DNA of 64,000 nucleotides from Spironucleus salmonicida (taxonomy: Eukaryota): contig NC_090598.1 of the NCBI RefSeq assembly GCF_000497125.1, positions 372,001 through 436,000 of the forward strand. Reading direction: 5' to 3'. Shown here piece by piece: positions 28,115 to 58,818 of this stretch. Positions within the stretch are counted from its first letter, which is position 1, and every line of letters begins with the position of its first letter. Position numbers and translations under genes: made by a program. Below the pieces are notes generated by a model. It worked only from the letters and a program-made list of their open reading frames with translations. It made no database searches and had not been told where the DNA came from.

Positions 28115-29488
28115 TCAATTATAGATATGCAAAGTACTTCTCTTGAAATGAGGTTTAAACTAATTGATACTTTCATTTTACTCAGTGTAAACGAAATTAC
28201 GATTGTCTTATGCGCCAATCAATTCTTCTGGTTAAAGTTACAATCTCTAGCATTCCATTTCCTTCTACATCCATTCATCAGTAATACGTAAAATGTATTT
28301 AGATTATGATTTAGTTTACTTAGCCAAATCGTTTATTTAACTAACTATATTTTAAGCTTAACTTGTTAGCTGTATGTTTGTGGTTTTTTCTACGTTTTCT
28401 GGATAACTCTGATTTTCTATAGCTCTGTATCCTAATTTTCTTAAAGAATCTAATAATAATTTTTATTGTAATCTAACCTTAGCCCACTCAGGGACAACTA
28501 TTTTTCTATAAGCAGACCATTCTTTAAGTGAGTAATATTTACCGCCAAGATTTAGTTAAAATGAAGTCTAAATATCTCCACGTTCTAGTCTAAAAGGTCT
28601 ACATCTCAATTATTTCAATTATTCTGGAAATGCTTCCAATTCTTTTAGCATTTCAATTGGATAAGTTGATGTAAAGTCATAATAATCAGGGAACATTAAA
28701 TGATATTTTTCTATATCAGGTAAAATATGAAAAGTTGCTGCTAGATGTCTCCTTAGTCCAGAGATAGAGAAAAATGACTTTTCACACTTAAAACATTATC
28801 TTGTTTATGAATAAACAGTTCTAAACAAATCGATAAGCTTTTCTGCATCACAATATTTTCTATAAGGTACAAAAAATCCATGCTCTTCTTCCATATGCTT
28901 TTCTAAAGTTGTAAAATCGGTTTCAGTCTTTTCGCACATCAAACACTCATTACAACCAATTTTAGTTCTTTTTTCAACAATTTCACTGAAAATCAGCTCA
29001 TCTTAGGCTTATTCGTCCAACTCAAGTAATTAAGGTAAAATTTATCTGAAAATCTCAGCCTCTTCATAATTACAAAACGATGGGACAGTAAATTCAAATT
29101 CATCGATATTTTGTTTATTTACTCCTTCGTCATTACAACATTAGTCACCTGTACCTGCAATTTTTTTGGTACCTGTTTTTTCTGTTTTTAAGGCAATTAA
29201 TTTAATTCTTTATTTATGCTTATTTGTAGTCATGTGTTCAATCATCTGGGCATTGGATTTGAATTTTCTGTTGCAAATAGTGCATTCTAATGCTTATTTT
29301 GCGGCTAATTCTGCTGTTTCTTGCTGCTGAATCGTCAGGAATTCTATATATTCATCAGGTGTCATTGGTGGAAGGGCTTTCTATGAGCGACGACAGTTCT
29401 CTACGTGCAATAATGTCTTAAAATGGTCTCTTTATTCATCTAGAGAGGTAAATGATTATCTACAAGTGATACAAGTATAATCTTACAT
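28115..29488 (-). CDS. REI1: Pre-60S factor Rei1/ZNF622 (C2H2 zinc fingers, 457 aa)
   Basis: YTCITC...QRDHFKTLLH...RRSQKALPP, CTICNRKF...HMTTNKH, CLMC...HMEEEHGFFVP, LGGK. Confidence 0.88.
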
Positions 29489-29649
29489 TTGGGAAAGGAT
29501 GATGAAAGGGAATTTTATATTAAAATATTATATATTAGTCCGCTTAAAAATTTTAGAGGTAATTTCACGGACTTTTCTGTCTAAAAAAATAATACTTCTT
29601 TGTAGACATATAAAAATATAATACCAAAGTAATAAGTAAAACAATTAAA

Positions 29650-30636
29650 TCAGTTATCAAAAATAGCTCTTAATTTTGTCAATAATTGCTCATATTCTAG
29701 GTCAACAATAACGCCGATATTCTTTCCATCAACCATCTTGGTTCTACCGAACTGTTCAGTCTATTCGGTAATAACTTCGATGCCGCACTATCTAAGGGTG
29801 CAGAATTCAGGGAAGATAGCAGCGAAAACAGCAAGTGCATCACAGATCATGTATCTGGTGCCATTAATCTTCTTAGTTTGTTGTACCATCCATGCAGAAA
29901 TTGCTTAGTGGAAATCTTAAAGCTTATTTTCACCTTTATGAAGGGAGTTAAGAGTGTCAAAAGTAAGAGATTTTTTGATGGTAAGAACCCAGTCTGCTAC
30001 TACAATATCCTTCTCTCTGAAGCACTTTTCAGCAGCGTCAACATCGCACGCAATATTGTGTTCAGCGAAGGGGCATTTGAATACACCCATGTTACCATCA
30101 GTTGGACCAAATGGTTTAGCATCATCCAAGGAAGCAAATGCCTCAGGAATACAAGCAGACATAGTAAAATATTACATATTTTCTACCTCTAATTCAGCCA
30201 TAGTGGTGCAAGGACCAATGGAGATGAATTTGAGCTTCTGGCCATTTTTCTTGGCCTCAGCAGCAGCCCAGAGCAAGGAAGGCATGAATTCTTCAAAAGG
30301 TAACTATTCGAAAGGTACATTATGTTTTTTCTCGAAATCAGGTTAGCCACCAAGACCGTCAATACCGTGCCAGCATTCTTCGTCAGGTTCAGATAAGGGC
30401 TTAGGTACAAACTTGGAAACCGTGTTTAAGGCAGAAACAGTGAGCTTAGGTATAACCTTTAAACCTTTTACCTGCTTATACATATTTACAACACGGCTAA
30501 CATTCTTCTTGACATAGTCGCAAGGTATGTTGCCATATGAGCAAGAAATACCTAAAACAGTAGAGTGTTATAAAGCCATTAAAATAGCAACTGTATCATC
30601 AAGACCAGCATCAGTATCAATCCAAAGATAGGACAT
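29650..30636 (-). CDS. Inosine-uridine preferring nucleoside hydrolase (328 aa)
   Basis: WIDTDAGLDD, SYGN, HGIDGLGG, IGPCT, AEHNIACDVDAA, CDALAV. Confidence 0.92.
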
Positions 30637-31025
30637 TTGATGAAAAGGGATTTAAATCTACTATGTTAGATTCATATTTTATAACATAATAATAAGATTA
30701 TAAAAATTTAAAAATCACAAACTATCACAAATATTTAAACTCATTTGGAGCGAAAGTCGCAAGATATAATATGATTTTTTTGCATTAATAGTATTGGTTT
30801 AGTAAATCAAGTATAGTTGATATTAATAATGATATTAACATTCGATAAAAACAATTTAATAGTTATAATATAGACAATATTTTTAATTTTAATTTAAAAG
30901 TGATGTTTAATTCAAAATATTAAGTTAAGTATAATATTTTAAAATTGTATTTAAATATTTTGAATAAAAATCAATCAAGTTTGATTATTGGTCTTTCTCT
31001 CCCAGACATTATATCTCCCGGCCTC

Positions 31026-31398
31026 TCTTGTGGTCTGTTCGCTGATATATGGAAACTGTTTCTATATATCAGCGAAAACTCACTATTTTTGGTTATAGCA
31101 ACCATATAAATTGCTTTGCAGCAATTTATGTAATCAGGAAATATTTTAATTAGAATCCATTCAGATTCTCATTTCTAAAAATAATGGTATTTCCCACGTC
31201 AACGGATGCTTCTACTCGCAAGCTTGCTACTATATCCGAGACCTGCGATGGATCCTAATCCGATATATAGTAGTCTAGATATAATATTGGTGCTAACATT
31301 TAAATCCTACGCGAGGAAACCTTTCTCATATTCTTATAGTACTTGAGCACACCAGAGGCAGGCTCTTTCAACCTTTAACACCACACCAGATAACAAGA
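31026..31398 (+). ncRNA. Candidate structured ncRNA, copy 1 (family unassigned)
   Basis: Closing helix 31026-31037/31387-31398 and internal stems 31038-31076, 31104-31131, 31137-31194, 31226-31274; G-U pairs favour this strand; the reading frame of the adjacent ORF is stopped by TGA here. Confidence 0.5.
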
Positions 31399-31466
31399 CT
31401 ACCAGTTTCACAGAAAAATATCACTGTGTGTATCAGCTCGTTACACTGGAGCTAACACAATAACAA

Positions 31467-31844
31467 TCACACCTCGCTTAACTCTTCTCCACAAATCTCA
31501 TCCTCAAATTCATCTTCTGGAACTTCTCCCATTAACCGATCTGGCCTAGTCAGTCTATATTAAATTTTCTCCAGATCAGTATTATTGTAAAGAATATCTG
31601 TCAATATATCACCGTTTGCTATCGCAAGTGCAGCTAATGCTAATTCACCTATTATCAAACCTCCAGATGCAAAAGGTTCAACATCTAAAGGAAGTGGAAA
31701 TTGATCATCAACTATCTTATCCCCATTAATGAATGCTCTTAATGTATTGCACGCCTATTGTTATTTTTTAAAAGCTTCCTAACAGTTATTCTTCCCAACC
31801 AAATTTTCCACTATGGACTAATACAACTTTACGCGATGCTTCAT
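31467..31844 (-). CDS. Orphan 125-aa protein, copy 1
   Basis: MKHRVKLYQSIVENLVGKNNCQEAFK...EDEFEDEICGEELSEV*; preceded by TATATTATATATT and a C-rich tract. Confidence 0.7.
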
Positions 31845-32643
31845 GATAGAGGTGAAGTGTGTATAAGTATAATATATAATATACAAGTCACTTTAAAACT
31901 TAAAAGGCATCACGAGTTGGTTCTTCACCTTCATAAACCTTGAACTTTTCGGAGTAAACTCAATCTCAATTTCTTTTTGGCCTATATTTAGCCACAGGTA
32001 ATGTTTGTGATATTGGTATCTGCACTTCAAGCTTTTACTTACATCATTATACTAAATAATTCACCATCTCTGATGACAGTTACATCTTTTGATAATAATT
32101 TAATATATTGTATTAATCATGATTATTAATGGTTATTTTTCATCTGTCATATTATAAATAGCAGTTGTTGACTTAACTCCATACTACCGTACTCTGCAAA
32201 TTTTTATTGACATTTTGAGAATACAAAAATTAATATTAGAAATTAAATATAATTTAGTTAATAATTTTAAAATTTGTTTATGTTTATTATCTTAAGTATG
32301 TGCATTATTGAAAATCATTATTTGTTTTGGAAATAATGTTCAGTTTTACAAAATCTTTAATTAAATTATTATATTATATAAAATTATTATTATAAATGAG
32401 ATAGATTAAATTACAAAAGAATTAAAACTTACGCAAGTAGACGAATATCTACTGGAATTATAGTAATATTATAGATACCAAAATAAAAACTGTATACACC
32501 ATAAATCTAAGATGCATGTATCAAATGGTAAAGGCATAATATTGCTTAAGTTTATGGAAACTCTTTATATTAATAAAGATCTAAGTCTTCACAAACTTAA
32601 TTTAATATATAACGAACTAGTATACTATATTTATCTTTCTAAC

Positions 32644-33021
32644 ATGAAGCATCGCGTAAAGTTGTATTAGTCCATAGTGGAAAATTTGGTTGGGAAGAAT
32701 AACTGTTAGGAAGCTTTTAAAAAATAACAATAGGCGTGCAATACATTAAGAGCATTCATTAATGGGGATAAGATAGTTGATGATCAATTTCCACTTCCTT
32801 TAGATGTTGAACCTTTTGCATCTGGAGGTTTGATAATAGGTGAATTAGCATTAGCTGCACTTGCGATAGCAAACGGTGATATATTGACAGATATTCTTTA
32901 CAATAATACTGATCTGGAGAAAATTTAATATAGACTGACTAGGCCAGATCGGTTAATGGGAGAAGTTCCAGAAGATGAATTTGAGGATGAGATTTGTGGA
33001 GAAGAGTTAAGCGAGGTGTGA
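32644..33021 (+). CDS. Orphan 125-aa protein, copy 2 (matches copy 1)
   Basis: Same ORF; the ATG starts one base inside the repeat boundary. Confidence 0.7.
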
Positions 33022-33089
33022 TTGTTATTGTGTTAGCTCCAGTGTAACGAGCTGATACACACAGTGATATTTTTCTGTGAAACTGGTAG

Positions 33090-33462
33090 TCTTGTTATCT
33101 GGTGTGGTGTTAAAGGTTGAAAGAGCCTGCCTCTGGTGTGCTCAAGTACTATAAGAATATGAGAAAGGTTTCCTCGCGTAGGATTTAAATGTTAGCACCA
33201 ATATTATATCTAGACTACTATATATCGGATTAGGATCCATCGCAGGTCTCGGATATAGTAGCAAGCTTGCGAGTAGAAGCATCCGTTGACGTGGGAAATA
33301 CCATTATTTTTAGAAATGAGAATCTGAATGGATTCTAATTAAAATATTTCCTGATTACATAAATTGCTGCAAAGCAATTTATATGGTTGCTATAACCAAA
33401 AATAGTGAGTTTTCGCTGATATATAGAAACAGTTTCCATATATCAGCGAACAGACCACAAGA
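33090..33462 (-). ncRNA. Candidate structured ncRNA, copy 2
   Basis: Inverted copy of 31026-31398. Confidence 0.5.
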
Positions 33463-33668
33463 GAGGCCGGGAGATATAATGAGCAAATATATTATCATTA
33501 TTACTACTTAAGAAATATAAGTATTTTAAATTATCTCATTTATACTCTTTATAATATTTCAAAATTATCATGTAATATACTAGTAATAAGAATATTATAT
33601 ATTTGTTATAAGTATTAATTAATATTATGTATTTATATATGATTTATATTTCCTTTCTTAAACATCAA

Positions 33669-37302: not shown

Positions 37303-37504
37303 AAAGATCCACAATAATACAATAAAAATATTATCCAAAAAAATAAGCCACATGCTTTGCATTTATTTATAAGTATATATGATTGTTCTTATTATAAAAT
37401 TAAGATAACCTGAAATTTTACTAATTATAACTTACTCCTTTGATATTTATTATTTATAGTTGATTATTATATATTGTATTTACTAATATCCACTCCACAT
37501 TAAA

Positions 37505-40027
37505 ATGCAGCTTTAAATATAATAAGCTCTAGAACAGTCTCTAAACCCTCTTACGATACAATAGGCAACATAAACTCTAGAAACTATGCGTTTGGATCCA
37601 AATTTTACTGAAAATTTAATTCCATTCCTTTAGACCGATCTTGCATTACCTGCAATTATCTAACTCTCACTTACACATAAAAATTTTATAGATCGCTAAC
37701 CATAACCATATCTCAAGTTAGCAATATAGCTTTTATAGATTCCTCCATAAATATCTGCTATCCCCAAAACATCTAATTTTCTTAACTAACTGGTTCCACA
37801 TCTTTTTGAATCAGGCTGGTTTACACAAATTAATGATCTTTAAGAGATGTTCGTATAATAGTAAAATATTCTAGCACTTAATGCAGTATGTGCTTGTTTT
37901 GAGAAATTTTAATCAGTAAGTTTGAATGATGAAATTGCGACTAAAATATTAAATTTATTAGAAAATTCTAAAGAAATGGTTAATTTTGTTTTTAAAGATT
38001 ATACTTAATAATACAGTTCTATATTGAGACTTTTACGAGCAGCATTTTCGTGGGAAGATCTACCTGATTTTTATCTAGAACATTATTAAGATATAATAAC
38101 ATTACTGTATAAAATTATAAATAATAATATGTGTAATAAAGAGGAATTTGAGGTAATAAATGAAATAGTCGGGGAAGCTATTTGTGTTCATTCAGAAGAA
38201 CTTAAAGAACATTTAGAAATATCAGTTCAATTTTTAATATATTGTGTTGAAATGCATGTATTAGATTGTAATTATGAATATTTTGTTGCTAAGACATTAA
38301 ATAAGTTGGCTCACTTTATTAGTTCGCCTGAGATGTAATAAATAATGTTAAAATTTACTAGTAGTTTGTATTAGCTTACACTCAAGGCACTATAAATAAC
38401 AGAATAAGACTATGATAATATTAAATTTTGTGATAATTTATATTTCTAGTGTTATCAGTCACGATATGATTTTAATTCTAGAAAAGATGGTGCTGAGTAA
38501 ATTTTAAAAGAGCTTTCAAAGTTAATACCAGAAATGAAATAGAATATACAGTAATAAGCATTTTAATAAGTAACTTTTGATAATTTATCGATTTAGATTA
38601 TTTTATTTAGAGTTTTTTCTATATAAAGCATGAGTAAAATACTAGGAATCAAACTATAAGTAGACTAAGATTATGTGAACTAGTTTGGCAGAAATTTATA
38701 TAATCTCATACAAAGCATATCATCAGTTAGTGATGAGAAAATATCTTTAATCTTTTCAGATATTCTTAAATTTACGGTTGATTTTTAAACAGTATTAGAG
38801 GACTCTATTCTCACTGAGCTTATACAAAAATTAGTAGCTATTTATTTAGGGAATTCAAATTAATTTTACAATAAAAATATGGCTTCTTCCGTTACTTAAG
38901 CACTTACATCTAAAGTACCCTGTTCTTAGTTTATAAATGAGAAAATTTTATCAAAACTTATAATTGAAAGCTAGGAAAATGTTATGTCAGATATAGAAAT
39001 ACAAGCTGTTTATTGTATTCTAAAAGCAGTCGTTAATTCTCTTTCAATTGAAAGTTAATCACAATTTATGTAATAAATTTTATAACTTCTTTAGATTTCT
39101 CTTTAAAATGAAGCTGGATAATCATATCTACATTACCTGTTTGAAACTACAGGTATTTTCATTAAATTTGCTAAATTTGATGTTTAAGATATATTTATAT
39201 ACTTATAGTAACTCACATTAAATGTGAATGAAAGCTAGCTTTAGGAGATATCCCCTTTCATATATTAACTTTTTACTTTAACTTCAAATACTGATATTTA
39301 ACTTCCATTATTATATCAAAGCTTAACCATAGAAACATACCAAAATTATCCAGATATGACGTTACCTTTATTATTCTTTGCAGATAAGTACTTAACTAAT
39401 AATAAAATTGAATTTTATCAAAAACCAAACACCATATTAAGATTAACATAAGAGTTTGGTCCCCAACTTAAGATTGAACCTGTGATATAAGATTTAATAA
39501 CCATATTGGTATAATAAAAATCAAAAATGCACCTTGCAATTAAGTTTATAAATAATACTATGGCAACAATAAGGTATGAACAACAATTTTTGTCTCAACT
39601 CACAATGTTTATTATGTCATAGAAGTAAATTCTTTTTACAAATAGGGAGCTACTTAAGTAATGTAGTATATATCTTTTAATGGAAATTGAAAATATTCCT
39701 AATTAGTAAGAAACTTTGTAAATGATAATCAAGCCAGCAGCTACTAGTTTTGGCATTCGTGATTAGTACAAATAAATATACTGTTCATTATTAGTGGAAA
39801 AGAGTTCTAGTTTATCATAATTTTTACCTTTAATTATTGAAATTTGTGGGCTTGCATTAGGAAAAATTAGAACTAGAGGAAATATGGGGCTAACTAGATA
39901 AGAAAAGGAGGGATAGGTGGTAGGTGTAAGTGTTTTAGATAGCGTTCTGGATAAGGAAAATGTGTTGAGTCTGGCTGACTTAACTGCAGAGTGCTAATAA
40001 AGACTCGGAGTTACGGCTTGGTAGTGA
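37505..40027 (+). CDS. Importin-beta family protein, Cse1/exportin-2-like (840 aa)
   Basis: N-terminus ALEQSLNP...QATQTLE typical of IBN_N; WEDLPDFYLEH resembles Cse1 QDLPEFFEDN; ends TAGTGA. Confidence 0.65.
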
Positions 40028-43765: not shown

Positions 43766-46700
43766 ATGGATACTATTAAAAAAATTTATTATACAGATCA
43801 GTCTGTTCTAGCAAGTCTATTAACATCTGATACTGCTCTTACTTTACTTACTAATAAAACTATAGAATACCACAATGCCAATTAGGAGAATCCTCTGAAA
43901 ATTATACTTTAAATTCCAGTTAATCATTCAATAGTGTAAGCTAGGTTCTTTCCAAGACCTGGCTAAGTTGAAATATTATTAGCAATATTAAAAGCAGATA
44001 ATAATTAATTTTTAGTAATTTTGGAAATAGGCAACGGAAAAATTTAATTTTCAACACCTTCATATTAATAAATTACTGATTTTAATTATATTGGAAATTC
44101 AGCTTTTTATGTAGCAGATAACATTATATATTCGTGGGATATACAGATTTAACCAGAGATTTTTTATAAAGGAACTGGAAAAATTAATAATATTCAGTTT
44201 GCTGAGATTTTGTTTAAATAACATGTTATCATTTGTTCTGATGATAAAGTTTTCACAATTGAGGCTGATACAAAGAGATAAGCACTTGATTTTAATATCA
44301 CAGGTAAAATTAGGTTAATGTGTTTTAATTCATTTATTAACCAAATATTTATTTAAACTATTGACGGCCCATTTTTTATTTTTGACTTGAATACAACTCT
44401 TACTTTTAATCTTTAACCTCCTATTCTAAACTATTCTTATAGTGGTAATTACAGGCTAAATAAAGTTTTACCCACTGAAAGTGGTTATATTGTAACGTGT
44501 TGTAACGGATTAATATATAATTTAGAAGTTGTATATGAAAGTCCATGTGCTGATTTAACTCAAATTGAAAAAATTGTAATAAATTAAGCAGGATTTTAGC
44601 TTGTTATCAAAGGAGCAAAAGTCTTATTTAATTCTTAAATAAAATTTTTAGGCCTTTCAAGAATCAGTAATGATTACTTTTTTGTTGGTACTGAAAATTG
44701 TATTATTTGCGGTAAAGTTTCTAGTATTAATACATGTGATGATGATTACATAGGGTTAGGCGTAACTAAACGTTAAAACGACTTAATTAAGAAAACTCGT
44801 ATTAGCTTAATGAAATCAGACGATGCTTAGTATAAAGAGTTTATTGATAATTTACTAACATATAAATTAGGTCATGTGTCAGAATTATTTAAAAATCAGT
44901 ATATAATGTTATGCAAAGATCTCTATCATATTGTCTAATATTACTCATTTACAGAAAATCATGATTTAGTATAAACTATTGATTCTCCTTGGGCTGATTT
45001 AGATAATCAAATATAATAAAAACCGTTTTCAGACGATGACCAATTTATAGCACTCAATCCATTTTATCCATAAGAACAATTTAGAATTATGCTGAATTCA
45101 GAATCTTAATAAAATGATTTAGATACCTTTATTGATCTTACACTTCAATAATTTTCATCAGATCCAATTGTTTCTTCATAAAAAATGTAGCTTTCAGCAT
45201 ATGCTAAAAATTATTTCCCGCATCTAACTGCTATTATTTATAGAATATCCAAATAATTCAACGAAGGACTGGTGAAGCTTAATTAATTTAAATAAAATAT
45301 GTAGCACCAGTCACAGTTTTTAGCTGATAATTTCAAAAAATTAAATTAAAACGAGACTGATTTAAGTCTAAAGACGGAGTAATCCCGCATCCTTCTAGAA
45401 AAATATGTTGCTAGTTATTATCATGAAAAATTATAAAAATTTGATTTGCTTTCAAATGAACCATCGAATATTAGAAATCTTATTAAATTTATTTTACCAC
45501 TTTATTTAAAAAGTGAAGTATCTACAAAGTTATCAAAGACGTAGCTTCTATCTGCTTTCAGCAAAAGTTTGAATGTTTTAATTGAAAATTTCACAGCATC
45601 AACTCCACAAAATTTAAGTTTAGATGGTAAAAATGCAGTTTCAGAAACAATTTTAGATTAAAATCATTCGATTTTCCATTAAAATCTAACTAGACTAAAT
45701 ATTGGTTATGGTAAAATAGAAAAGTTCGCATTCTAACCATTGCCAGCAAATTCGATTTCGTTCCATTTTACAGAAATAGATCAGAATTTAGTGAATTTGC
45801 TAAAAGAAATTAATGCATAGAACAACTAAATGAGATAAATTTCAAATGAATATTTGATTTTTGATGACTTTTTGGTACCCTACGTCATCTATGATTTTAT
45901 TGAACTTTTTTCAGCAACAAACTTGTTATTTATGGTATCTGATCAACTAAAAAATACATCATAGGAAATATTCAATGCTATTCAGTATACTAATAAATAA
46001 TTTAAAGGGAAATTCTAGCTTTTGGAGTTATATGATATTAGACCTTACGAATAAAATGATTAATATTCGAAACTTTACTTCAAGAAAGCCGAAAATATTT
46101 TTCGTTTAAGTGATATAATAACAAATTAAACGTAGGATTTGAGCTGGTAAAATCCACACAAAAAATTCATTCCAAGGCCTCAAAATCTATAAGATACTCT
46201 AGAAAAAATGTAGTTTGGCATGAAACAGATTAAGCGTATTATAGCTAACCTAGCAGAGTTTCTAAACTTTGTGTAAACTTAGGAAGTCGCTGTAAACGGA
46301 CTTGAAAACGGAAAATTCCGCTCATACGGAGGTATTGATCCAACATAAGTTTTTGTAGACTTAATAACATTAGAAGTGCATGTTTTGTTTGTATTTGAAA
46401 ATACAGATTCACTTAAAATTGATAACAATAGAATAGTTATGGGAGCATGTTTCCAAGCACCAGAACTTATTTTTGGTGTCAGATAGCCATCCAGTGATGT
46501 GTGGAGTCTGGCATTATTATTTTTATGTTTGTATCATTCGTTTGTTGCAGTTCCAAAGTAGAAAAAAATGAAAAGAGCTGATATAAAAAGTTTTGCATAA
46601 ATAATTTTTAATTTCAATTATTTTGTGCACTTAACCAGTAAAATTGCTGCCGACAATTTCAATTTCAAATCAAAAAATAGCAAACAACGAGAAATGCCTA

Positions 46701-48196
46701 CTCCATTATAAACAGTAATTTTAGCAGTTTTAACAGCATCAGCAAGCTTGAGTACTGATATAACAGATTTGCCTTAGCAATAATAAATCAGCAAAATACT
46801 GAAAGTTTTAATGTCTGGAAGCTCATAGTAAGTTTCTAATATGCAAGATTATTTCACAAAAGCAATATCACAGCCTTTCATAAATCCTGGGCAAAATGGA
46901 GAAGCAAAAGAGCTTTTTTCTTATAATAAAGGTAAAATGTTTAAGTTTATAGAATTAACAGAAAAATATATTTAAAATATTATTAAAAAGTGTCTGGTGT
47001 TCAATTCTGATGAGCGAATGAGTATTTCAGAATTCCTGAGCTTGTGGAAGTGTGAAGGAGACGACGTATTACAATAGGAGTTAGTGCTTTCGAAGGATAT
47101 TTAAAATATTTCCGAGTCAAATTAGAAGGTGATGTAATATTAGTTGTAAGTAAAAATTGAGATCTCGTCAGGGGAGGATTTATCTGTTACTAACGAAGAA
47201 GATGTTGAAGACGAAGAGGAAGATTTTAGCGATTAATTAGAAAAAATTAATGCTGAAATGTCATATTCCGGTTCTCAATAGGTTGAAGAGGAAATTGATG
47301 AAGAAAATTTCGAGGAAATGACCGAAGGTGAAATCAAGGAAATCAAGGAGAAGAAGCAGTATAATAGCTAATTAGAAGCTTTTAGAGAAATTTATATCTA
47401 ATAATATGGAGAAGTTCCTGGTGATTTAGATTTAGAGGCTTTGATGAAACATAGCATAGCAGATTAAGAGGATCCTAATTTAGAAGAGATAGCTGGATTG
47501 GAAACTAGCGACATTTACAAAGCTGATGATATGAACTACTATTAGGATATCATTGATAATCCTGATAAATTTAAAGAAGTAGAAGTACCTGTTGTTGCAG
47601 AGGATGTTGAAAAAGTCAACTAACCCTAAATCAAAGGTGTGATGAGTTAGATGAAGCCAGAATACGATGTGTACGCTATGTAAGATGAATTAGTGGAAGA
47701 GTATAATATGCCTTCAGATTATGAGCCTGAGAAATCTGAAGAAGTAGAGTAGGCCGAAGAGCTACCCTGGTATGTATTAGCAGCTTAGTAAGAGGAAAAA
47801 GAAAAATAAGAAAAAGCAAGCACAAAACTAACTAGGAAACAAAAAATATAGTAGAGAGACAAAAAAGTTGCTTCTGGAGAGCAAGAATCAGATGATTACA
47901 CCTATGAAGATGATGAAGAAGAAGAGGAAGCGGACCACGAAGAGGAGAAAACCGAAATATCGAAAACTGAAAAACAAGAAAAGGATGATGAGCCATAATT
48001 TAACTATGAGAACTCTGACAAACCAATTTGGGAAACAGCTGAAGGGGATTAGGAAAAAGAAGTATTTTATGATGAAAATGGCGAAGTAATTGACATGAAT
48101 ATCGGAGATATGAACATCGAATAGGAAATTTTGATAGACGATGACGGTATGGCATATTATATCAATGAGGAAGGCGAAAAGCAGTACCTGGAGTGA
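43766..48196 (+). CDS. Large multidomain protein: beta-propeller-like N-terminus, coiled coil, degenerate kinase domain, acidic tail (1476 aa)
   Basis: In-frame ATG to GAGTGA; kinase C-lobe motifs YGGIDPTQVFV, GACFQAPELIFG, SDVWSLA, KCLVFNSDERMS; E/D-rich C-terminus. Confidence 0.7.
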
Positions 48197-51414: not shown

Positions 51415-53217
51415 TCATTCTTAACCGCCATCCTTTGCGCCCTGTTCTTCTTCTTTAGCCACTTCTATGACCAGTCGTCTACCATAAAAATGCACACCAT
51501 TTATGCCTTCAATCGCTTCTCGCGCCTCACGTGACGTGCTATATTCGACGAAAGCGAAACCACGCAAACCACCATCTAAGTTCTTCGGACAACGCAATGC
51601 TGCAACCTTACCAAACTAGTTTAAAAGTTGTCTCAATTCTGCTTGATTCGCCTGGAAAGCTAAATTTTTGATCATTAACCGTGTTGAATTTGTGTTATTT
51701 TGGCTAACTGTAGCACGCGCTTTTTAAGGCTCCCACCGAAAACCGTCCTGCATAACCTAACTAAGCGCAGATATGACCTTATTCAGTTAGCTTTCTTGCA
51801 CAGTCACGAAGCAATACCCTTTATGCGAAATTTCATTTTATGGAATTGTGATTTATTCGTATTATTATATCTATTCTTTAATAATATGCTCAATTTACGT
51901 TTTATCTGTCGCGAACGAAATGTTTCGGATACACACACTGACCATTTGGTCCATTTTGGCCTCCGTTTCGACCTTAAGGGCCGCATTTTCAGCCTCCTGA
52001 ACTTGCTCTTCCGCGCTCAAAACGCACGCAAATTCCAGCATCATAGGCACTTTTTCATTCCCCATTTTCTTGAAGCAGAGCTTTCCGAAAGCGCGTCGCG
52101 CGTCGCCATTTTCAGCGAATTTTACGATGCAAAAACCCGCGAAAAACGCTTTGCAGTAAACGACGATTCCAAACTGCTCGAAAAGCTGTTTTACGTCCTT
52201 TTCGACCGTCGAAATCGGCAGATTTTTGCACAAAATGACGTTTTTACTGCGATTGTGCGAGGGGCTAAAAGCGATGTTTTCGGCCTTAAACGCCGCCTTA
52301 AGCTCCTTCTGTAGGTACGCCTCCGCGGCTGCCAGCGTCACTGCGCTGTCCTGAATCAGCGCTGCTTTGTCGCCCAAATGCGCCTGCAGCGCGTCCACGA
52401 TGTTCTGCTGGCGCTGAATCAGCGGGTTCCAGGCCAGCTTGTTGTTCTTGTCGAAGCCCTTCGCCTTGTATTCCTTGGTGCGAATGAACTCCTAGATCGC
52501 TGAGGTGCGGCCCTGCGTTATTCTGACGAATTTGCCGTTGATTTGTGTTTCCTGAGCGAGAACAGCGCGCTTTGCAGCCTCTGGGAGCGCGAATTGGACA
52601 TATGCAACACCAGTTGGCTGCTTGGTGAGCGGATTCGTCGCCAGGACGACATCCGAGATTTCGCCGAATGGTGCGAAATGCGTTTGGATTTGATCGGTAG
52701 TGGTGAGGGTTGGAAGGTTGGAAATTTTGATTTTTGAGTCATCTATTTCTCCATTTTCAGCTGGGCGGGCTTCTTGTGAGTCGATTTATAGCTGCTTTTA
52801 ATTATTTTATTGTTTTTATGGCACTACTATATTCTACTCCCATCCAGAGCCAGTGTTTAGATATTACTTTAGTAAATCGCCTCCTTCCGCTATTAGCTAC
52901 TCTGCTAGTGCTCGAGCGCCTTGCGATAGGTTTTTCTGCTTTTTCTAGTCTTTTAACTGGTTTTCCTGAGCTACCTTGTGAGAAACAGCAATTTATATTT
53001 AAATTTTTCTTCCTCCAATGTAAGTATTGGATCTAAGCTTCACTGCACGCTCTGCTGATGTAGCCTCTGCAAACCCAATGTACCCTATGCACCGTGATGT
53101 CTTATCAGAGTTAGTGATTATTTATGTGTCAGTAATGTTTCCGATTTATTAAAAATGCTCCTTAATTTGCAATTCAGTGGCAGATGCTGGAATATTCTTA
53201 ATGAAAATACGGGACAT
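51415..53217 (-). CDS. MRD1: Multi-RRM ribosome biogenesis protein Mrd1/RBM19 (600 aa)
   Basis: MSRIFIKNIP, GYIGF, WNPL linker, ILCKNLP, LMIKNLAFQA, RGFAFVEY, HFYGRRLVIE. Confidence 0.9.
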
Positions 53218-53277
53218 TTTTAAAGTGGTAAGAGAAATGGTATATATAATATTATATAAGAATAATATAAAATATAA

Positions 53278-54413
53278 ATGATTAAACTAAATATACCTTG
53301 TAATGTGCTAGGTTGGATTAAGTACAAAAGTAAACTAACGCACGAATAAAGGTATTTCTATCTTATAATATAAACTAATACAAACTAAGAAATTGTAACT
53401 AAATTTATGCTTCATATGAACAACTAAAAATAAAATAAGTAACCTGAGTACATGAATCATGCTGATTATAACATATTTGATATTATATTATTAGAGAACG
53501 TTATTGTAAGAAATACTATATCTATAAAGTCTTTTTCAGCAGATGATCTTGAAATTTTTATTTTCAACGATTAAAACTATAACATATCTATAGTTAAAAA
53601 AATATAATTGTATAGTAAAGTCTTTAATAATTATCTTAATTATCTATTAAGGATAATAATAAATATGTTAGTGTTGTGGTTAAAATTCATGATTATGAGT
53701 TGTCAAACGACTATGTTTAGTTATTATGTCTAGATGGAACATAACCGGTTAGAGTATAAATGCATATCTTAGATTTAAATCGATTTGGATTAATTTCCAA
53801 TAATTATGTTTAATTTATAGAAGAATTTTTACTATATCATACATTTGGGTTTTTGGACCTTTTAGTTTAATCTTTATAATATAATAAATAATTTAAGGGA
53901 TTTTTATCAGTAGTTAATAGAACTCATATATTTAATGAATAAAAATCAATTTAAATTTTTAAAAATTTAGATATAAGAAACATTAATTAATCACTGCACT
54001 ACAGTTGCATATCATCTTCAAAAAATCTTAGAGACTATAAGACAGTTATATTTTGCAGTATAACAATAATAAATTCATGTAATTAACTAATAAGACGTGC
54101 ATGTTAATACTGCAAGAGTTTTAGATCCTAATGTAAAGACTGTGGGGTACTAACTTTTTGTGGTTATGGATTGATTACTATGGATGATTGCACTTTTGAG
54201 GCAAGTTTATCTCATAATTTTTTAACCTAGTGGTTATAATGTTCACCTACCGAATATTTTTAGTTAAATACCACTGAGTAATAACTTAAAACTATTTATT
54301 CTAAATAATTAATGGTTGAAATGATTACTTATTCAGATTCCAAGGAAGTAACTAATATTTTACATACTAATTTGATGTTTTTATTAAAATATAAAATTGC
54401 ATAAATAAAATGA
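53278..54413 (+). CDS. Putative OB-fold/zinc-ribbon protein (RPA1/POT1/CTC1-like), interrupted by a frameshift near 53600
   Basis: Frame 1 gives an OB-like N-terminus (NVLGWI...FDIILLENV). The -1 frame, open 53547-54413, gives VSVVVKIHD...LCLDGT and RRACQYC...CKDCG...ITMDDCT. Confidence 0.5.
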
Positions 54414-54423
54414 GTACTTTTTA

Positions 54424-57400
54424 TCAAAACCAATACATCCAACCCTTCCACATTTTCATTAGTTCATCTATATTTATAGCTTCCTTAGTTAAAATATTAA
54501 CTTACTATTCAATTGTTGTACTACCTTAGTATTTACATTGTAATTTTTATTTAACAATTTATTTAATTAGTGGATTTGGAGTTGAATCTAATACAAACTA
54601 CACAACTTCCTAGTTTTGGAATAATGCTTTATGACATGCAACGAATAGTTATTCAAACAAATTATCAGAATATAAAGAAGAGAAAATTTTAGTAAACCTA
54701 AATGGAATTATTTCTTAAACTTTTGATTTAAGACCTTAAAACCAAGCATGTTCTAAATCTATTTATAATATTTACCCATCTTATAGAACACAAATATTAT
54801 CTAAATGTCTATCACCAATTCCAAAGTAACAAGTTATTAATGAGGATAATACATATGATATTAAGAAATTATTTTATAATGCATAAGGTCTAATATTAGA
54901 TTATATCTAGAAATATTCAGATAAATATGAATATGATAGTTTATCTTAGAAATCCAATAGTTCTTTTTTGTTAAATTAAGATATTTTCGTAAAGTTTGGA
55001 TCTTCAAGATTTAGTTTTTTCAGCTCTAGACTAAGATATAATGAATTAGTTAGAATTTAATAAATAGAAGTGAATTCTACAAATTACATTATGCCAACAT
55101 AGATATTACTATTTTAGTATTTATACCTTTATTATAACAATTTTAGTACTTCACTATTCATTAATCTGCATAAAGGAATACAATTTATGTAGTTTATTCT
55201 TGTATTTGCAAATATTCCTTGTGAGATTAATAATTACTAGTTAAGGTAAATAAATAAGTCCTATAATTTAAGTTCTTCGATAAAATTTTCTCTAGAAAAT
55301 TTTATTACTTTTTTACATTTGGTATCATCACTAAATACTAAATCAAATGGAATCACAATATTTATTGAATCTTTACACTTATATTTAAAAATAGATAAAA
55401 TTTTCTAATTTGTTAGCGGATAGAATACGTTTTCAACAGTAGATAATATATTTTCAGGTAGTTGAATTATCGTAATTAAAAATTTATTTATTTACTAATC
55501 AATAGATACATTTTAATATTAGATTTTATCTTACAATATTGCATAATTGAAAACATTTTTACTAAATATTTTTACCAATTTTTATACTCTTGAATTAGAT
55601 TTTAGTATTGGATTAAATTTTATCAATTCTATAATTTCAATAAAACCTATACTTATTGTTGACATTAATTATTGATATTCATTTATTAATAATGCATCCA
55701 AGATTTCATAGTTTAGTTCATCTAATAAAATAAGCTTTAAAATTAATTTAATAATTAAGCAGATTTTTAATTATATAATTTCAGTTATATGAGTATTGAT
55801 TACTTATAGTAAAAATTAATGTATTTATTCAATAATTTAAAGTACTTTTATACTGTTCTAATTTTTAAGCTATTCTTATCTATGTAAAAAATATGTTCCA
55901 ATTTTTATATCTTATATTTCAGTCTATAGTTAGTCTTTAAAATCATTATACTGTAATAATATAGTGTAATAAGTATTTATATTTAGTTATATCTCATCCA
56001 ATTAACGCACCAGTTATTAAATTTGATCTTCTTATAACATAATGGTGCATAATGGCTCAATAACGAAATACGGTTACATTAGCATAAAATTATTAATATT
56101 ATATCCGCTAATACTTCTTCCTTATCGTATTTGTGATGCTAAAAATAATGATACTTTTAATTAAAATGTATTCACCCTTCTTAATTTATTATAAAATAAA
56201 TCTGAATCTTTTAAATTAAACATAAAATCATCAAAAAAATTTGAACTTATATTATTATCATAATTGTAATGGTTATTTCGCCATAATATTGCACTATAAT
56301 TTTGCTCTTATAAACCAAGTATTTATAATTTTTGATATAGTTTTTAATTTTATAGATAAAAATTTTCAAATTTTATGGAAGCATCATAATCTCCTAAAAT
56401 TTCGGCTTTAAAAGTTATATTTAAACTAGAAAATGGTATTATATACTCCATATTATGATATATATCTTTATTATCTATAATGTGATCACAAACTTAACAT
56501 AGTAAAATGTCAATCAGCCTTTTTAAAAGAGTTGGAGATAACTAATATATATTATCATGAAATTATTAAAAATAACATATTAGTTCAAATTATTATTAAC
56601 TCTCAATAGTTTCTTATTATAACATACTAGTATAATAATTCAGTTTCTAAAATTATGTTATGCACCCATATGTTTGACATAGTTAAGAAAAATTTAGGGA
56701 ATAATGTTAAATTTCCATAATAATTTAACCTGGTAGTAACATTTATGACATTTTAAAATTCGTATAAAGTTTAGCCTTTTATATAAAATAATCAACCCCA
56801 GTTAACTATTCCATAAAACTATAATACTAAAATACTATATATTCAGACTCAAGAAATTGGTTAAGTGTATTATTATTTAAAAGACTATCTAGTAGTAATA
56901 TTAGTTTTTAACTTTGAATTTATAAATCTAATGCAATATTGCATATATAAGGTAATTGTTCATTATTGCATCGAAATTCTTGTTTAGATAATAGTGTAAT
57001 TACTATAACATCTAAAGGATACTAATCTATATCAATTATTTTAGGATTAAAATGCAAATCTAAGAGTCTTAAAATATTTAAAATTTCACTTTTTTTTGAT
57101 GCAGTTTTAAGCTATTTTTTCAGTATTTTGAATGCTTATAAAGTCAAATTATTAACAGTATCTGGTAAATACAATAGATTCGCCTACATGTCCGAAAAAA
57201 ACTAGGTTTCATCAATTTATGTTGATTTACTGTAATTAATAATAATATTTGAAAAATTTTATTCAGTAATCAGATTTTGCTGTTTTTGCTATGTTATATA
57301 ATTTATATCTGAATTAAATAATCTAAAATTTATATCAAATCCCTAAAATTATTATAGGTAAAGGATATATCGATATTAAAGCTATTACTATTTAATCTAA

Positions 57401-58647
57401 TTTATAATCTCACCATTTTAATAAACTATATCATAAATAAAAATTGACGCCAGCGTTTAATAATCATTTTACAATTGTAATTATTGATCTGATATTAAAT
57501 CAATAGGATGTGACTAAATGTAATCTTAAAAATTTTATTATTACTGGACGGTAATAGAACTTAATCCTAACAATGTTGTTGAAATCTTAAGGGTTAAATC
57601 TAACTAAATATTCTAAAACTATTAACTAAATAATTTAATAATCATATTCTAGTCTATATATCTAGACTAATAAGATAATACAGAATTACTTTGGTTTTTT
57701 ATTATTTACTTTGCTTTATTTTCATCCAAAGGTTTGTAATTAATAATAAGCTTATTTTTATGTAAGATTGTACATGAAATTACATTAGTTATAAGATATT
57801 TGTCAAATTATTATCTTGATAATAACAATTTGTATATAAAAACCGGTAATTATTCAATTTCTATATCAAAAAATACTAATATATCATTTATTGTTATTAA
57901 TTCATCCTTTTATTTAGTAACAAATTAGCAAAATAAGTTTTAGGTTTCAGTAATTCCAGTTTCATAAATACTAGGGGTTTTAAAAAGTGGAACTTATAGC
58001 GAGTAATCAAAATTTAAGTTAATAAATTATATTAAAGGATTCACGAAAAATAAAGTTTTATAGTCTTTTATTTTAAATAAATATTGTAGTAATTAATTAG
58101 CTTAAGTTTAAGATTATTCAATTAATTAACTAAGTAGTATAAAAAATAATTTCCATCTTCTTATTCCTAAAATTCTACATTTCTCGTAGTCAAAATCCAA
58201 AGGAGAATAATAAGCAATCTCCTCAAGCAAATCAAATTATTAGGCAAATGTCATTATTTATTTCTACTTCAAAGTTAGGAATATATTCAAATTTTATAAT
58301 GCTATTTATGTCTAGTATTTTGAAATAATCTCCAAATTTTAAAATTCTTGATTAAATAATTAGTCCTATTATAATAAGTGATCTAAAATAATATCTTAAT
58401 CATAATCTTTTTCTCCTTTTAATAATTTAATAATTTAATAATTTGTTAATATTTATTTTAATTCACATTGGATAACATATTAAGAAGACTAATAATGCAT
58501 TTTCAATTACTGATACTGTTCTTATGTATTTGGATTTATAAATTAAAAGAGTTACCCTAGATTACTATTACTGATCAATTGCTAACTCCCATTTAGTATG
58601 TCAATATATTATAAAATAATAGGAAATATATCTTTCTATCTGAACAT
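54424..58647 (-). CDS. PIKK family kinase with FATC domain (ATR/ATM/TOR superfamily), divergent (1407 aa)
   Basis: YFGIGDRHLDNI, EIIPFRFT, C-terminal LMKMWKGWMYWF*; start inferred from frame. Confidence 0.82.
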
Positions 58648-58818
58648 AAATGGCTAATAAGATAATAATTAAGCATTATACTTTTATAATTAAATTATAT
58701 TAGTGTCATCAACTTATTTTTTAAAGTTTCTTAAAAAAAATTCATATACCTTAGTATTTTAAAGGAACTACATTATAAATAATACTAATTATATATGTAT
58801 ATAAATTTATATATTAAA

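What the first reader, a model, noticed from the sequence alone, without database searches (positions are those of the whole stretch)
31007..33481. 839-bp inverted duplication of an orphan ORF plus structured-RNA cassette
Seen: 31007-31845 is the reverse complement of 32643-33481, with a unique 797-bp spacer and unique outer flanks. The inner edge falls at the start codon (cATG) of an orphan 125-aa ORF. The outer edge lies about 20 nt beyond a multi-hairpin region on the opposite strand, so each arm is a convergent protein-gene/putative-RNA pair. Upstream of each ATG is a different AT/C-rich promoter-like sequence. Inference: identity confined to the apparent functional units suggests gene conversion that keeps a two-component RNA+protein module in duplicate. 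An invertible promoter spacer or a recent mobile or virus-derived insertion are alternatives. I noticed no other repeat of this size in the window.
Basis: partly seen in the sequence, partly recalled or inferred. Interest (0 to 1): 0.8.

Follow-up and report, generated by a model that had tools for sequence, protein, structure and literature searches.

The report
Identical inverted gene pair in Spironucleus
A real, letter-perfect head-to-head duplicate of a small unknown gene plus a strongly folding non-coding stretch flanks a third small gene in the fish parasite Spironucleus salmonicida; such identical inverted gene pairs are already known from its relative Giardia, so the open question is what the folded stretch does.

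Summary
Bases 31007-31845 are the exact reverse complement of 32643-33481 (839 of 839), and this is the only large repeat in the window. Short-read contigs of two DNA runs show the arm as one 839-nt contig at 2.4-2.7x the depth of the flanks. Both unique outer flanks join it, and a single-copy spacer contig ends in the arm on both sides. It is therefore not an assembly artefact.

The organism is Spironucleus salmonicida (a source's name for P0004). Each arm holds a 125-codon orphan gene with strongly gene-like codon usage. It also holds 460 nt that are non-coding, have coding-level G+C, fold unusually well and are covered by contigs of runs guessed to be RNA.

The "spacer" is not empty. It carries a 110-aa annotated orphan gene, which this assembly breaks by seven single-base omissions.

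Best reading: a DNA-level head-to-head inverted duplication, either recent or kept identical by conversion. This resembles Giardia's identical inverted vsp pairs.

An RNA-plus-protein "module" is not shown. The strand and role of the folded part remain open, and no known RNA family matches it. Interest is modest.

The parts
31007..31845 (.). Left arm of the inverted duplication (839 nt)
   Evidence: 839 of 839 identical to the reverse complement of the right arm. Found as one 839-nt short-read contig at 2.4-2.7x flank depth.
32643..33481 (.). Right arm of the inverted duplication (839 nt)
   Evidence: The right outer flank appears as a loose end at 31007 on a 41-kb DNA contig.
31467..31844 (-). 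ORF-B, left copy: 125 codons plus TGA (protein P0001)
   Evidence: Code-6 ORF. Codon log-odds is 0.283, higher than 94% of 96 real-gene chunks and higher than all 480 wrong-frame chunks. No Pfam family. No relative in 1.84 billion representatives except itself and one weak repeat-protein hit.
32644..33021 (+). ORF-B, right copy: identical 125 codons plus TGA
   Evidence: The stop context TGTGA fits the stop-overlapping poly(A) signal described for this species (PMC3916229 passages).
31007..31466 (.). Folded non-coding part ('tail'), left copy, 460 nt. Strand of any RNA is undetermined.
   Evidence: All six frames have negative codon scores, -0.05 to -0.24. G+C is 0.37 against 0.17-0.18 in flanking intergenic DNA. 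Folding z is -4.8 and -5.6 against shuffles. Only 1 of 528 control windows in the window folds better for its composition. Covered by the X5 contig 31007-32303 and the X7 contig 30991-32001. No Rfam family matches.
33022..33481 (.). Folded non-coding part ('tail'), right copy
   Evidence: Identical to the left copy.
31038..31076 (.). Largest hairpin of the tail (19-bp stem); its twin lies at 33412-33450
   Evidence: (D1). Read from the sequence, the stem is perfect with one G-U on the strand opposite to ORF-B and has one A-C mismatch on the ORF strand.
31085..31091 (+). Sm-site-like heptamer, unpaired between two hairpins, on the strand opposite to ORF-B. This is a lead only.
   Evidence: motif scan; unpaired in the MFE and centroid folds. 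About 0.3 such matches are expected by chance in the arm on both strands (my estimate from base composition).
31846..32642 (.). Single-copy spacer: 797 nt in the window, 814 nt by short reads
   Evidence: The 874-nt contig has 30 nt of arm at each end. 14 single-base insertions relative to the window were placed in 31816-32619.
31888..32213 (-). ORF-A: gene for a 110-aa uncharacterised protein (P0004, UniRef V6LC22). In the window it is broken by 7 missing single bases.
   Evidence: Adding the bases that all covering runs show opens the frame. The resulting product equals P0004, which was retrieved by a reference query. Codon score is 0.226. No Pfam family and no homologue.
31845..31887 (-). 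43 nt between the ORF-A stop and the left ORF-B ATG. Holds a TATA-like run and a C-rich stretch.
   Evidence: Read from the sequence. Layout as described in PMC3916229.
32214..32643 (.). AT-rich divergent region between the ORF-A start and the right ORF-B start
   Evidence: Spacer G+C is 0.23.
30950..31006 (+). Left flank just outside the arm. Holds a TATA-like element (30950-30959) and an 11-nt C-rich run (30993-31003) that point into the arm.
   Evidence: Read from the sequence. The X7 contig reaches 30991.

Best explanation
This is a genuine head-to-head inverted duplication in the nuclear genome of the diplomonad Spironucleus salmonicida.

The duplicated unit starts 1 nt before the start codon of a small acidic orphan protein, ORF-B (125 aa, with one hydrophobic segment). 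It continues through 460 nt of non-coding, strongly folding DNA. The two copies face away from a single-copy centre. That centre holds a third orphan gene, ORF-A (110 aa), and an AT-rich divergent promoter region.

Inferred origin: one DNA-level inverted duplication event, such as a fold-back or template switch, whose breakpoints are the present arm ends. The zero differences over 839 nt then reflect either a very recent event or continuing conversion between the arms. This is the pattern of the identical inverted vsp gene pairs of Giardia.

Inferred working:
- Each ORF-B copy uses its own upstream TATA-like and pyrimidine-rich sequence.
- The left copy sits 43 nt behind ORF-A.
- The right copy is divergent from ORF-A.
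- Recombination between the arms would flip the centre, but the product is a mirror image with the same local gene order, so the locus is not a switch.

The 460-nt part is most likely a functional structured RNA. It could be a separate non-coding RNA or a structured extension of the ORF-B transcript. Its strand, ends and role are not determined.
For: Shown:
- Exact identity and uniqueness in the window.
- Two-copy depth, both outer junctions and a single spacer contig with inverted arm ends in short-read contigs.
- No base differences in the arm in 4 of 4 runs.
- Code 6 gives ordinary neighbouring genes: nucleoside hydrolase, class-V aminotransferase, C2H2 zinc finger, macro domain, Hsp70, PFOR.
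- ORF-B codon score is 0.283, above all 480 wrong-frame chunks.
- The tail is non-coding in 6 of 6 frames. Its G+C is 0.37 against 0.17-0.18 for intergenic DNA. It is the second most over-folded of 530 windows.
- ORF-A equals an annotated protein of S. salmonicida.
- Contigs of two RNA-like runs run unbroken over tail, ORF-B and ORF-A (31007-32303 and 30991-32001).
- The flanks diverge abruptly.

From papers:
- Giardia has 14 pairs of identical vsp genes. All are inverted, 2-4 kb apart, and identity ends abruptly 139-729 bp beyond the coding region (PMC2996952, passages).
- In S. salmonicida 19.2% of the genome lies in duplicates of at least 2 kb and 95% identity, most often covering one gene (PMC9509377, text parts 1-2).
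Against: - The inner breakpoint falls exactly at the start codon, and the outer one lies close to where the RNA-like contigs end. That is a coincidence under a blind DNA-level event, and it fits a unit defined by transcription or function better.
- Arm depth is 2.4-2.7x rather than 2.0x. I put this down to G+C bias, but that is not shown.
- No whole genome was available, so further diverged copies elsewhere cannot be excluded.
- The runs called RNA are only guessed to be RNA, and both come from one study.
- Recency and conversion cannot be told apart with one genome.
- No relatives exist for ORF-B, ORF-A or the tail, so no claim of function rests on conservation.
Confidence: 0.6

Rival explanations
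1. A two-part RNA-plus-protein module. The tail is an independent non-coding RNA gene transcribed towards ORF-B from a promoter at the arm's outer edge. ORF-B is its protein partner. Conversion keeps exactly the two functional units identical.
For: - The arm ends coincide with the ORF-B start codon and with the place where RNA-like contigs stop or fork (31007 and 30991).
- A TATA-like element and an 11-nt C-rich run lie just outside the left arm and point inward.
- The largest hairpin and one other pair better on the strand opposite to ORF-B (read).
- An Sm-like heptamer lies unpaired between hairpins on that strand.
- That strand has 0 stop-type poly(A) motifs in 839 nt, against 6 on the ORF strand.
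- Only U2 and U5 snRNAs have been found in this species, so many RNAs are still missing (PMC6679479, passages).
Against: - No Rfam family matches. The best tail hit has E 0.44 and 23 bits against a gathering score of 50.
- Overall folding is stronger on the ORF strand: z -5.6 against -4.8, and -3.98 against -3.25.
- The X7 contig includes the C-rich run that would be the promoter.
- The right flank has no comparable C-rich run.
- The motif counts are within chance.
- Nothing links the protein to the RNA.
Confidence: 0.15
2. The tail is simply a long structured 3' extension of the ORF-B mRNA, or read-through from ORF-A. The whole arm then equals one transcription unit that was copied.
For: - One unbroken contig covers ORF-A, ORF-B and the tail in two RNA-like runs.
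- Folding is stronger on the ORF strand.
- A GNRA-type loop appears on that strand (read).
Against: - In this species the poly(A) tail normally starts about 14 nt after a stop that overlaps the signal (PMC3916229).
- ORF-B has such a stop context, and three more such motifs follow on that strand inside the tail.
- No such motif lies near the arm's outer end.
- Contigs cannot show strand or single molecules.
Confidence: 0.2
3. Assembly artefact: a false inverted duplication made from chimeric long reads.
For: The spacer of the window carries at least 14 single-base errors, so this stretch of the assembly is of low quality.
Against: The short-read graphs of two DNA runs need two arm copies. This follows from the depth of 2.4-2.7x, two different outer flanks, and a spacer contig with the arm at both ends in opposite orientation.
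Confidence: 0.02
4. A mobile element with 839-bp terminal inverted repeats (foldback or TIR transposon), a virus-derived insertion, or a retro-copy of a transcript.
For: The layout is long terminal inverted repeats around a small centre. The arm begins at the likely transcript start of ORF-B.
Against: - There is no direct repeat at the two outer ends.
- There is no transposase, integrase or reverse transcriptase; ORF-A and ORF-B match no Pfam family.
- The spacer is single-copy and the arm is two-copy by depth.
- 0 relatives were confirmed among 22 pattern matches in viral contigs and 293 in metagenome contigs.
- No A-run lies at either arm end.
Confidence: 0.04
5. A recombination switch: the arms flip the centre to change expression.
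For: 839-bp perfect inverted repeats 0.8 kb apart are good substrates for homologous recombination (established for organelle and plasmid inverted repeats; recalled). The errors of the long-read consensus are confined to the spacer, with 14 gaps in 31816-32619 against at most 1 in 29000-31036. A mixture of both orientations could cause that.
Against: Because the arms are identical, the flipped form is a mirror image in which ORF-A again sits 43 nt upstream of one ORF-B copy and divergent from the other. No promoter-gene link changes. Short-read contigs cannot show orientation. No recombinase is encoded here.
Confidence: 0.05

Closest known systems
Identical inverted vsp gene pairs of Giardia lamblia (PMC2996952, passages seen)
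   Same: Both are in diplomonad nuclear genomes. Two letter-identical ORFs lie in inverted orientation; head-to-head pairs exist there too (4 of 14). Identity runs some hundred bases beyond the coding region and then stops abruptly (139-729 bp there; 460 bp on the 3' side here).
   Different: The gene here is not a vsp or cysteine-rich surface gene but a 125-aa orphan. The centre is 0.8 kb and holds a gene, against 2-4 kb of non-coding DNA there. Identity stops 1 nt before the ATG on the 5' side. The shared 3' part has unusual G+C and folding.
High-identity single-gene duplications of S. salmonicida (PMC9509377, text parts 1-2 seen)
   Same: Same genome. Duplicated stretches most often cover one gene, and duplicated DNA has higher G+C than the rest.
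   Different: That survey counted only matches of 2 kb or more, so this 839-bp pair falls below its threshold. Orientation and perfect identity are not discussed there.
Flip-flop inverted repeats (plastid genomes, yeast 2-micron plasmid); recalled, not tested
   Same: Perfect inverted repeats of several hundred bases around a unique segment. Homologous recombination between them inverts the centre.
   Different: This is a chromosomal locus with no dedicated recombinase. Both orientations have not been observed here.
Spliceosomal snRNAs and other small nuclear RNAs (Rfam families)
   Same: A hairpin, a single-stranded U-rich Sm-like heptamer and further hairpins occur on one strand of the tail. 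G+C is far above intergenic level.
   Different: No Rfam model matches at E up to 10 apart from weak hairpin-type hits. No U1, U2 or U6 signature words are present. The 460-nt length is larger than these RNAs.
Foldback or TIR DNA transposons
   Same: Long terminal inverted repeats.
   Different: There is no target-site duplication, no transposase and only a single locus by depth.

Membership tests
Identical inverted gene pairs of diplomonads (defined on Giardia vsp genes) | Two ORFs with identical sequence in inverted orientation on one chromosome | tested here: met
   839 of 839 identical, head-to-head. Two copies are confirmed in short-read contigs.
Identical inverted gene pairs of diplomonads (defined on Giardia vsp genes) | Identity continues into the flanks and ends abruptly within a few hundred bases | tested here: met
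   There are 460 identical bases 3' of the ORF and 1 base 5' of it. The outer flanks are no more alike than shuffles (452 of 500 shuffles score as high). The inner flanks are marginal (6 of 500 at 60 nt, 73 of 500 at 150 nt).
Identical inverted gene pairs of diplomonads (defined on Giardia vsp genes) | Pair members are vsp (cysteine-rich surface protein) genes separated by 2-4 kb of non-coding DNA | tested here: not met
   ORF-B has no Pfam family and is not cysteine-rich. The centre is about 0.8 kb and holds ORF-A.
Any Rfam RNA family (snRNA, snoRNA, RNase P/MRP, SRP, telomerase RNA) | Covariance-model score at or above the family's gathering score | tested here: not met
   0 matches at gathering thresholds in 64 kb. 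The best tail hit is an H/ACA model at 23 bits against 50, E 0.44.
Telomerase RNA | A template of at least 1.5 telomere repeats; the telomere is (TAGG)n in this species (PMC9509377) | tested here: not met
   None of the four 6-mers complementary to the repeat occurs on either strand of the arm.
TIR or foldback transposon | Target-site duplication, transposase, several copies | tested here: not met
   The outer 14 nt on the two sides share no direct repeat. No transposase domain is present. Spacer depth is 0.65-1.1x and arm depth 2.4-2.7x that of the flanks. A genome-wide copy count was not possible.
FG-GAP / VCBS-type repeat proteins (for ORF-B) | Pfam repeat match; several repeats forming a propeller | tested here: not met
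   No Pfam hit at E up to 10. There is only one 36-78-aa stretch with 31-40% identity to the repeats of the bacterial protein P0003 (E 1.9e-4 over the whole library).
Protein-coding gene of this genome (for ORF-B and ORF-A) | Codon usage like that of confident genes, in the proposed frame only | tested here: met
   ORF-B scores 0.283 against -0.04 to -0.34 in its other five frames. ORF-A scores 0.226 from its annotated start. Real chunks score 0.142 +/- 0.090 (n=96) and wrong frames -0.160 +/- 0.129 (n=480). The first 40 codons of ORF-B alone score about 0.

The most novel reading that the evidence does not exclude
The 460-nt folded part would be a so-far unrecognised structured nuclear RNA gene of Spironucleus. 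It could be one of the essential RNAs still missing from this genome, for example an Sm-class RNA. It would be transcribed convergently with ORF-B from a TATA-like plus C-rich promoter at the arm's outer edge. It would be kept in two identical copies, together with a small acidic partner protein, by conversion between the inverted arms.
Probability: 0.12. Interest if true: 0.65.

Novelty: new member of a known kind. Interest (0 to 1): 0.33.

Why it matters
- It shows that letter-identical inverted gene pairs, so far described for Giardia surface-antigen genes, also occur in Spironucleus. Here they involve an unrelated orphan gene in a housekeeping region. This bears on how diplomonad genomes keep duplicates identical.
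- It flags a 460-nt candidate structured RNA in a genome where only two spliceosomal snRNAs have been identified (PMC6679479).
- On the practical side, it shows that this assembly mis-states the centre of the locus by at least 14 single bases and so destroys the reading frame of an annotated gene (V6LC22). Users of the assembly should know this.

None of this changes a general picture, so interest is modest.

Tried and rejected
- Whole genome: none is held. Copy number therefore rests on contig depth only.
- RNA families and tRNAs: nothing found.
- Protein searches. ORF-B matched only itself among 8 word-sharing candidates. It matched itself plus one weak hit in 1.84 billion representatives. 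The Atlas gave no usable hit. ORF-A matched only itself, and its best PDB hit has E 0.24.
- Structure models without alignments were useless (pLDDT 45.6 for ORF-B; 35.8 for ORF-A). No fold search was run.
- Relatives in metagenome and viral contigs: 0 confirmed of 293 and of 22 pattern matches. An exact 24-nt word of the tail had 0 matches in metagenome contigs.
- Sequencing runs: no RNA holder is listed on record. X5-X8 are only guessed to be RNA.
- Parts without cover in X5 and X7 (30708-30951, most of 32304-32642) were seen, but they prove nothing. The same holds for the upstream extension of the 169-aa gene call P0002.
- Fusion of ORF-A and ORF-B after correcting the spacer: rejected. They are in different frames, and ORF-A ends at its own TGA 43 nt before the ORF-B ATG.
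- A 49-nt intron-like stretch starting at the ORF-B stop (a GT start and an AC-repeat plus AG end, read): rejected. Splicing would meet a TGA at once, and the motif differs from the species' intron motif (PMC3916229).
- The 227-codon ORF antisense to the arm (31049-31729): codon score -0.03, so not coding.
- ORF-A against ORF-B: no similarity (E 1.9).
- RNA interference from a hairpin transcript: unlikely, because Dicer, Argonaute and RdRP were not found in this genome (PMC3916229).
- Signature words of U1, U2 and U6, box C in the tail, and a telomere template: absent.
- Perfect Watson-Crick hairpins with stems of 11 bp or more: only 3 in the window, all pure AT and none in the arms. This scan did not help.
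- Literature: searches for 'Spironucleus' with 'inverted repeat' (7 papers hold both terms, 6 listed) and with 'non-coding RNA' (15 papers hold both terms, 14 listed) found no description of this locus.
- Not seen: the logos of the C-rich, start and stop motifs, which are in PDF supplements of PMC3916229. Motif matches were therefore judged against other genes of the window.
Full report
**Observation.** The repeat finder reports one inverted pair, 31007-31850 and 32638-33481. blastn shows that the exact part is 31007-31845 against 32643-33481, 839 of 839 bases. The 844-nt version takes in five further matches across one mismatch. A megablast of the window against itself finds no other repeat. 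A perfect 839-nt match cannot arise by chance.

**Is it real DNA?** No whole genome is held, so I used public runs. Eight runs from two studies hold the region. I laid two DNA? runs (X1, X3, one sample) and two RNA? runs (X5, X7) on 29000-32642.
- In both DNA runs the arm is a separate contig of exactly 839 nt.
- Its depth is 419.3 in X1, against 172.5 and 162.6 for the two flank contigs. In X3 it is 28.7, against 10.5 and 10.3.
- One long contig enters the arm from the left flank. Another enters it in reverse, and its loose end reads as the right flank of the window.
- A single 874-nt contig (depth 111.3 in X1, 11.6 in X3) covers the spacer and carries the inner 30 nt of the arm at both ends in opposite orientation.
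- No base differences inside the arm were reported in any of the four runs.

This graph can only be resolved as flank, arm, spacer, inverted arm, flank. The duplication is real and its copies are identical in the reads as well. Short-read contigs cannot tell the orientation of the spacer.

**An assembly fault in the centre.** All runs that cover the spacer carry extra single bases relative to the window. There are 14 gaps in 31816-32619 in both DNA contigs, 12 of them listed by position. Eight lie in the X5 contig and three in the X7 contig. In 29000-31036 there is at most one gap. By my reading, the two sites that I checked against the sequence extend homopolymer runs. The short-read spacer is 874 - 60 = 814 nt, against 797 nt in the window.

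When a script added the listed bases, a minus-strand ORF opened. A search with a 40-residue window reference, whose first 26 residues are in frame, returned P0004. This is a 110-aa protein that UniRef names an uncharacterised protein of Spironucleus salmonicida, V6LC22. It equals the corrected reading from its annotated start.

So the spacer holds a gene (31888-32213, minus strand) that the window breaks by seven missing bases. This hit also names the organism. P0004 has no Pfam family, no homologue and no useful model (pLDDT 35.8).

**Context.** Under table 6 the window is full of ordinary genes. Next to the locus lie a C2H2 zinc-finger protein, a nucleoside hydrolase, a class-V aminotransferase and a macro-domain protein. 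Further away lie Hsp70, PFOR, an RRM protein and a PI3K-related kinase. The locus therefore sits in a housekeeping region.

**The ORF in the arm.** ORF-B (P0001, 125 aa) has no Pfam family. An all-length HMMER search of 1.84 billion representatives found only its own 169-aa gene call and P0003, a bacterial repeat protein. P0003 resembles one 36-78-aa stretch of ORF-B at 31-40% identity. I treat that as a motif-level resemblance at most.

A codon log-odds table built from 22 long ORFs of the window gives ORF-B 0.283 in frame.
- 96 real-gene chunks score 0.142 +/- 0.090.
- 480 wrong-frame chunks score -0.160 +/- 0.129, and none of them reaches 0.283.
- The other five frames of ORF-B score -0.04 to -0.34.
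- Its first 40 codons alone score about zero, which is within noise for that length.

ORF-B is acidic (pI 4.4) and has one hydrophobic 19-residue segment. Its stop context matches the stop-overlapping poly(A) signal described for this species (PMC3916229 passages). I conclude that ORF-B is a real orphan gene. Its AlphaFold model is unusable (pLDDT 45.6).

**The other 460 nt.**
- Coding: all six frames have negative codon scores.
- Composition: G+C is 0.37, like coding DNA (0.36) and twice that of the flanking intergenic DNA (0.17-0.18).
- Folding against shuffles: z is -4.8 on the strand opposite to ORF-B and -5.6 on the ORF strand, with 0 of 100 shuffles as stable in either case.
- Folding against the window: in a regression of folding energy on composition over 528 control windows, the tail lies at z -3.98 (ORF strand) and -3.25 (opposite strand). 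Only one control window is lower. The ORF-B part lies at +1.3 to +1.4.
- RNA families: Rfam gives nothing at gathering level, and only weak hairpin-type hits at E up to 10. The best is 23 bits against a threshold of 50.
- Cover: the X5 contig (1305 nt) covers 31007-32303 and the X7 contig (1014 nt) covers 30991-32001. These runs are only guessed to be RNA. Their contigs are gene-sized, unlike the 52-kb DNA contig.

The tail is therefore most likely a functional structured RNA or RNA segment.

**Which strand?** The evidence is mixed.

For the strand opposite to ORF-B:
- The 19-bp hairpin and one other hairpin have G-U pairs there and A-C mismatches on the ORF strand.
- A TATA-like element and a C-rich run lie just outside the left arm and point inward.
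- An Sm-like heptamer is unpaired between hairpins.
- That strand has none of the stop-type poly(A) motifs, while the ORF strand has six.

For the ORF strand:
- Folding is stronger overall.
- A GNRA-type loop is present.
- The contig is continuous with ORF-B.
- The X7 contig includes the would-be promoter run.

None of these is significant alone, so I leave the strand open.

**Origin and mechanism.** The flanks just outside the arms show no decayed homology. For the outer flanks, 452 of 500 shuffles score as high. For the inner flanks, 6 of 500 do so at 60 nt but 73 of 500 at 150 nt, and the aligned block is a TATA-like run. The outer ends share no target-site duplication. There is no transposase and there are no viral relatives.

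The closest described thing is the set of 14 identical vsp gene pairs of Giardia. All are inverted, four are head-to-head, and identity stops abruptly 139-729 bp beyond the coding region (PMC2996952). Earlier notes of this scan on a Giardia inverted duplication led me to that paper. S. salmonicida itself is rich in high-identity single-gene duplicates (PMC9509377).

I therefore read the locus as a DNA-level inverted duplication, either recent or homogenised by conversion. Flipping of the centre by recombination is plausible. It might explain why the consensus errors cluster in the spacer. The flipped form is a mirror image with unchanged local gene order, so a regulatory switch is unlikely.

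**Verdict.** This is a new member of a known kind of diplomonad genome feature, with one unexplained part: the folded 460 nt.

Noticed in passing
window 31846-32642: The window lacks at least 14 single bases here relative to contigs of all four runs laid. Where I checked, the missing bases fall in homopolymer runs. The neighbouring 2 kb has at most one such gap. The errors destroy the frame of the annotated 110-aa gene V6LC22.
   Followed up: yes
window 52211-52670 (also 51981-52440): This is the only stretch of the window that folds better for its composition than the tail (z -4.06 and -3.57, G+C 0.55). It lies inside the gene for a protein with four RRM matches (51418-53460, minus strand).
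   Followed up: partly
window 32512-33021 (+): A public gene call (P0002, 169 aa) starts the right ORF-B copy 44 codons upstream of the shared ATG, inside the error-ridden spacer. The left copy cannot have this extension, so the shared 125-codon form is the likelier product.
   Followed up: partly
window 31845-31850 and 32638-32643: Five of the six bases just upstream of the two ATGs are the same in both copies. This may be micro-homology at the breakpoint or chance in AT-rich DNA.
   Followed up: partly
window 54424-58845 (-) against 55893-57131, 57132-58574 and 58495-60243 (+): Long ORFs overlap on opposite strands. The minus-strand one has PI3/PI4-kinase and FATC domains. The plus-strand ones are probably by-products of a code with a single stop codon.
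   Followed up: partly
window 43766-48193 (+) and 37352-40024 (+): Two very long ORFs (1476 and 891 aa) have no Pfam family at E 0.001. They are large lineage-specific proteins.
   Followed up: no
window 31085-31091 (+): An Sm-site-like heptamer lies unpaired between the 19-bp hairpin and the next hairpins of the tail.
   Followed up: partly
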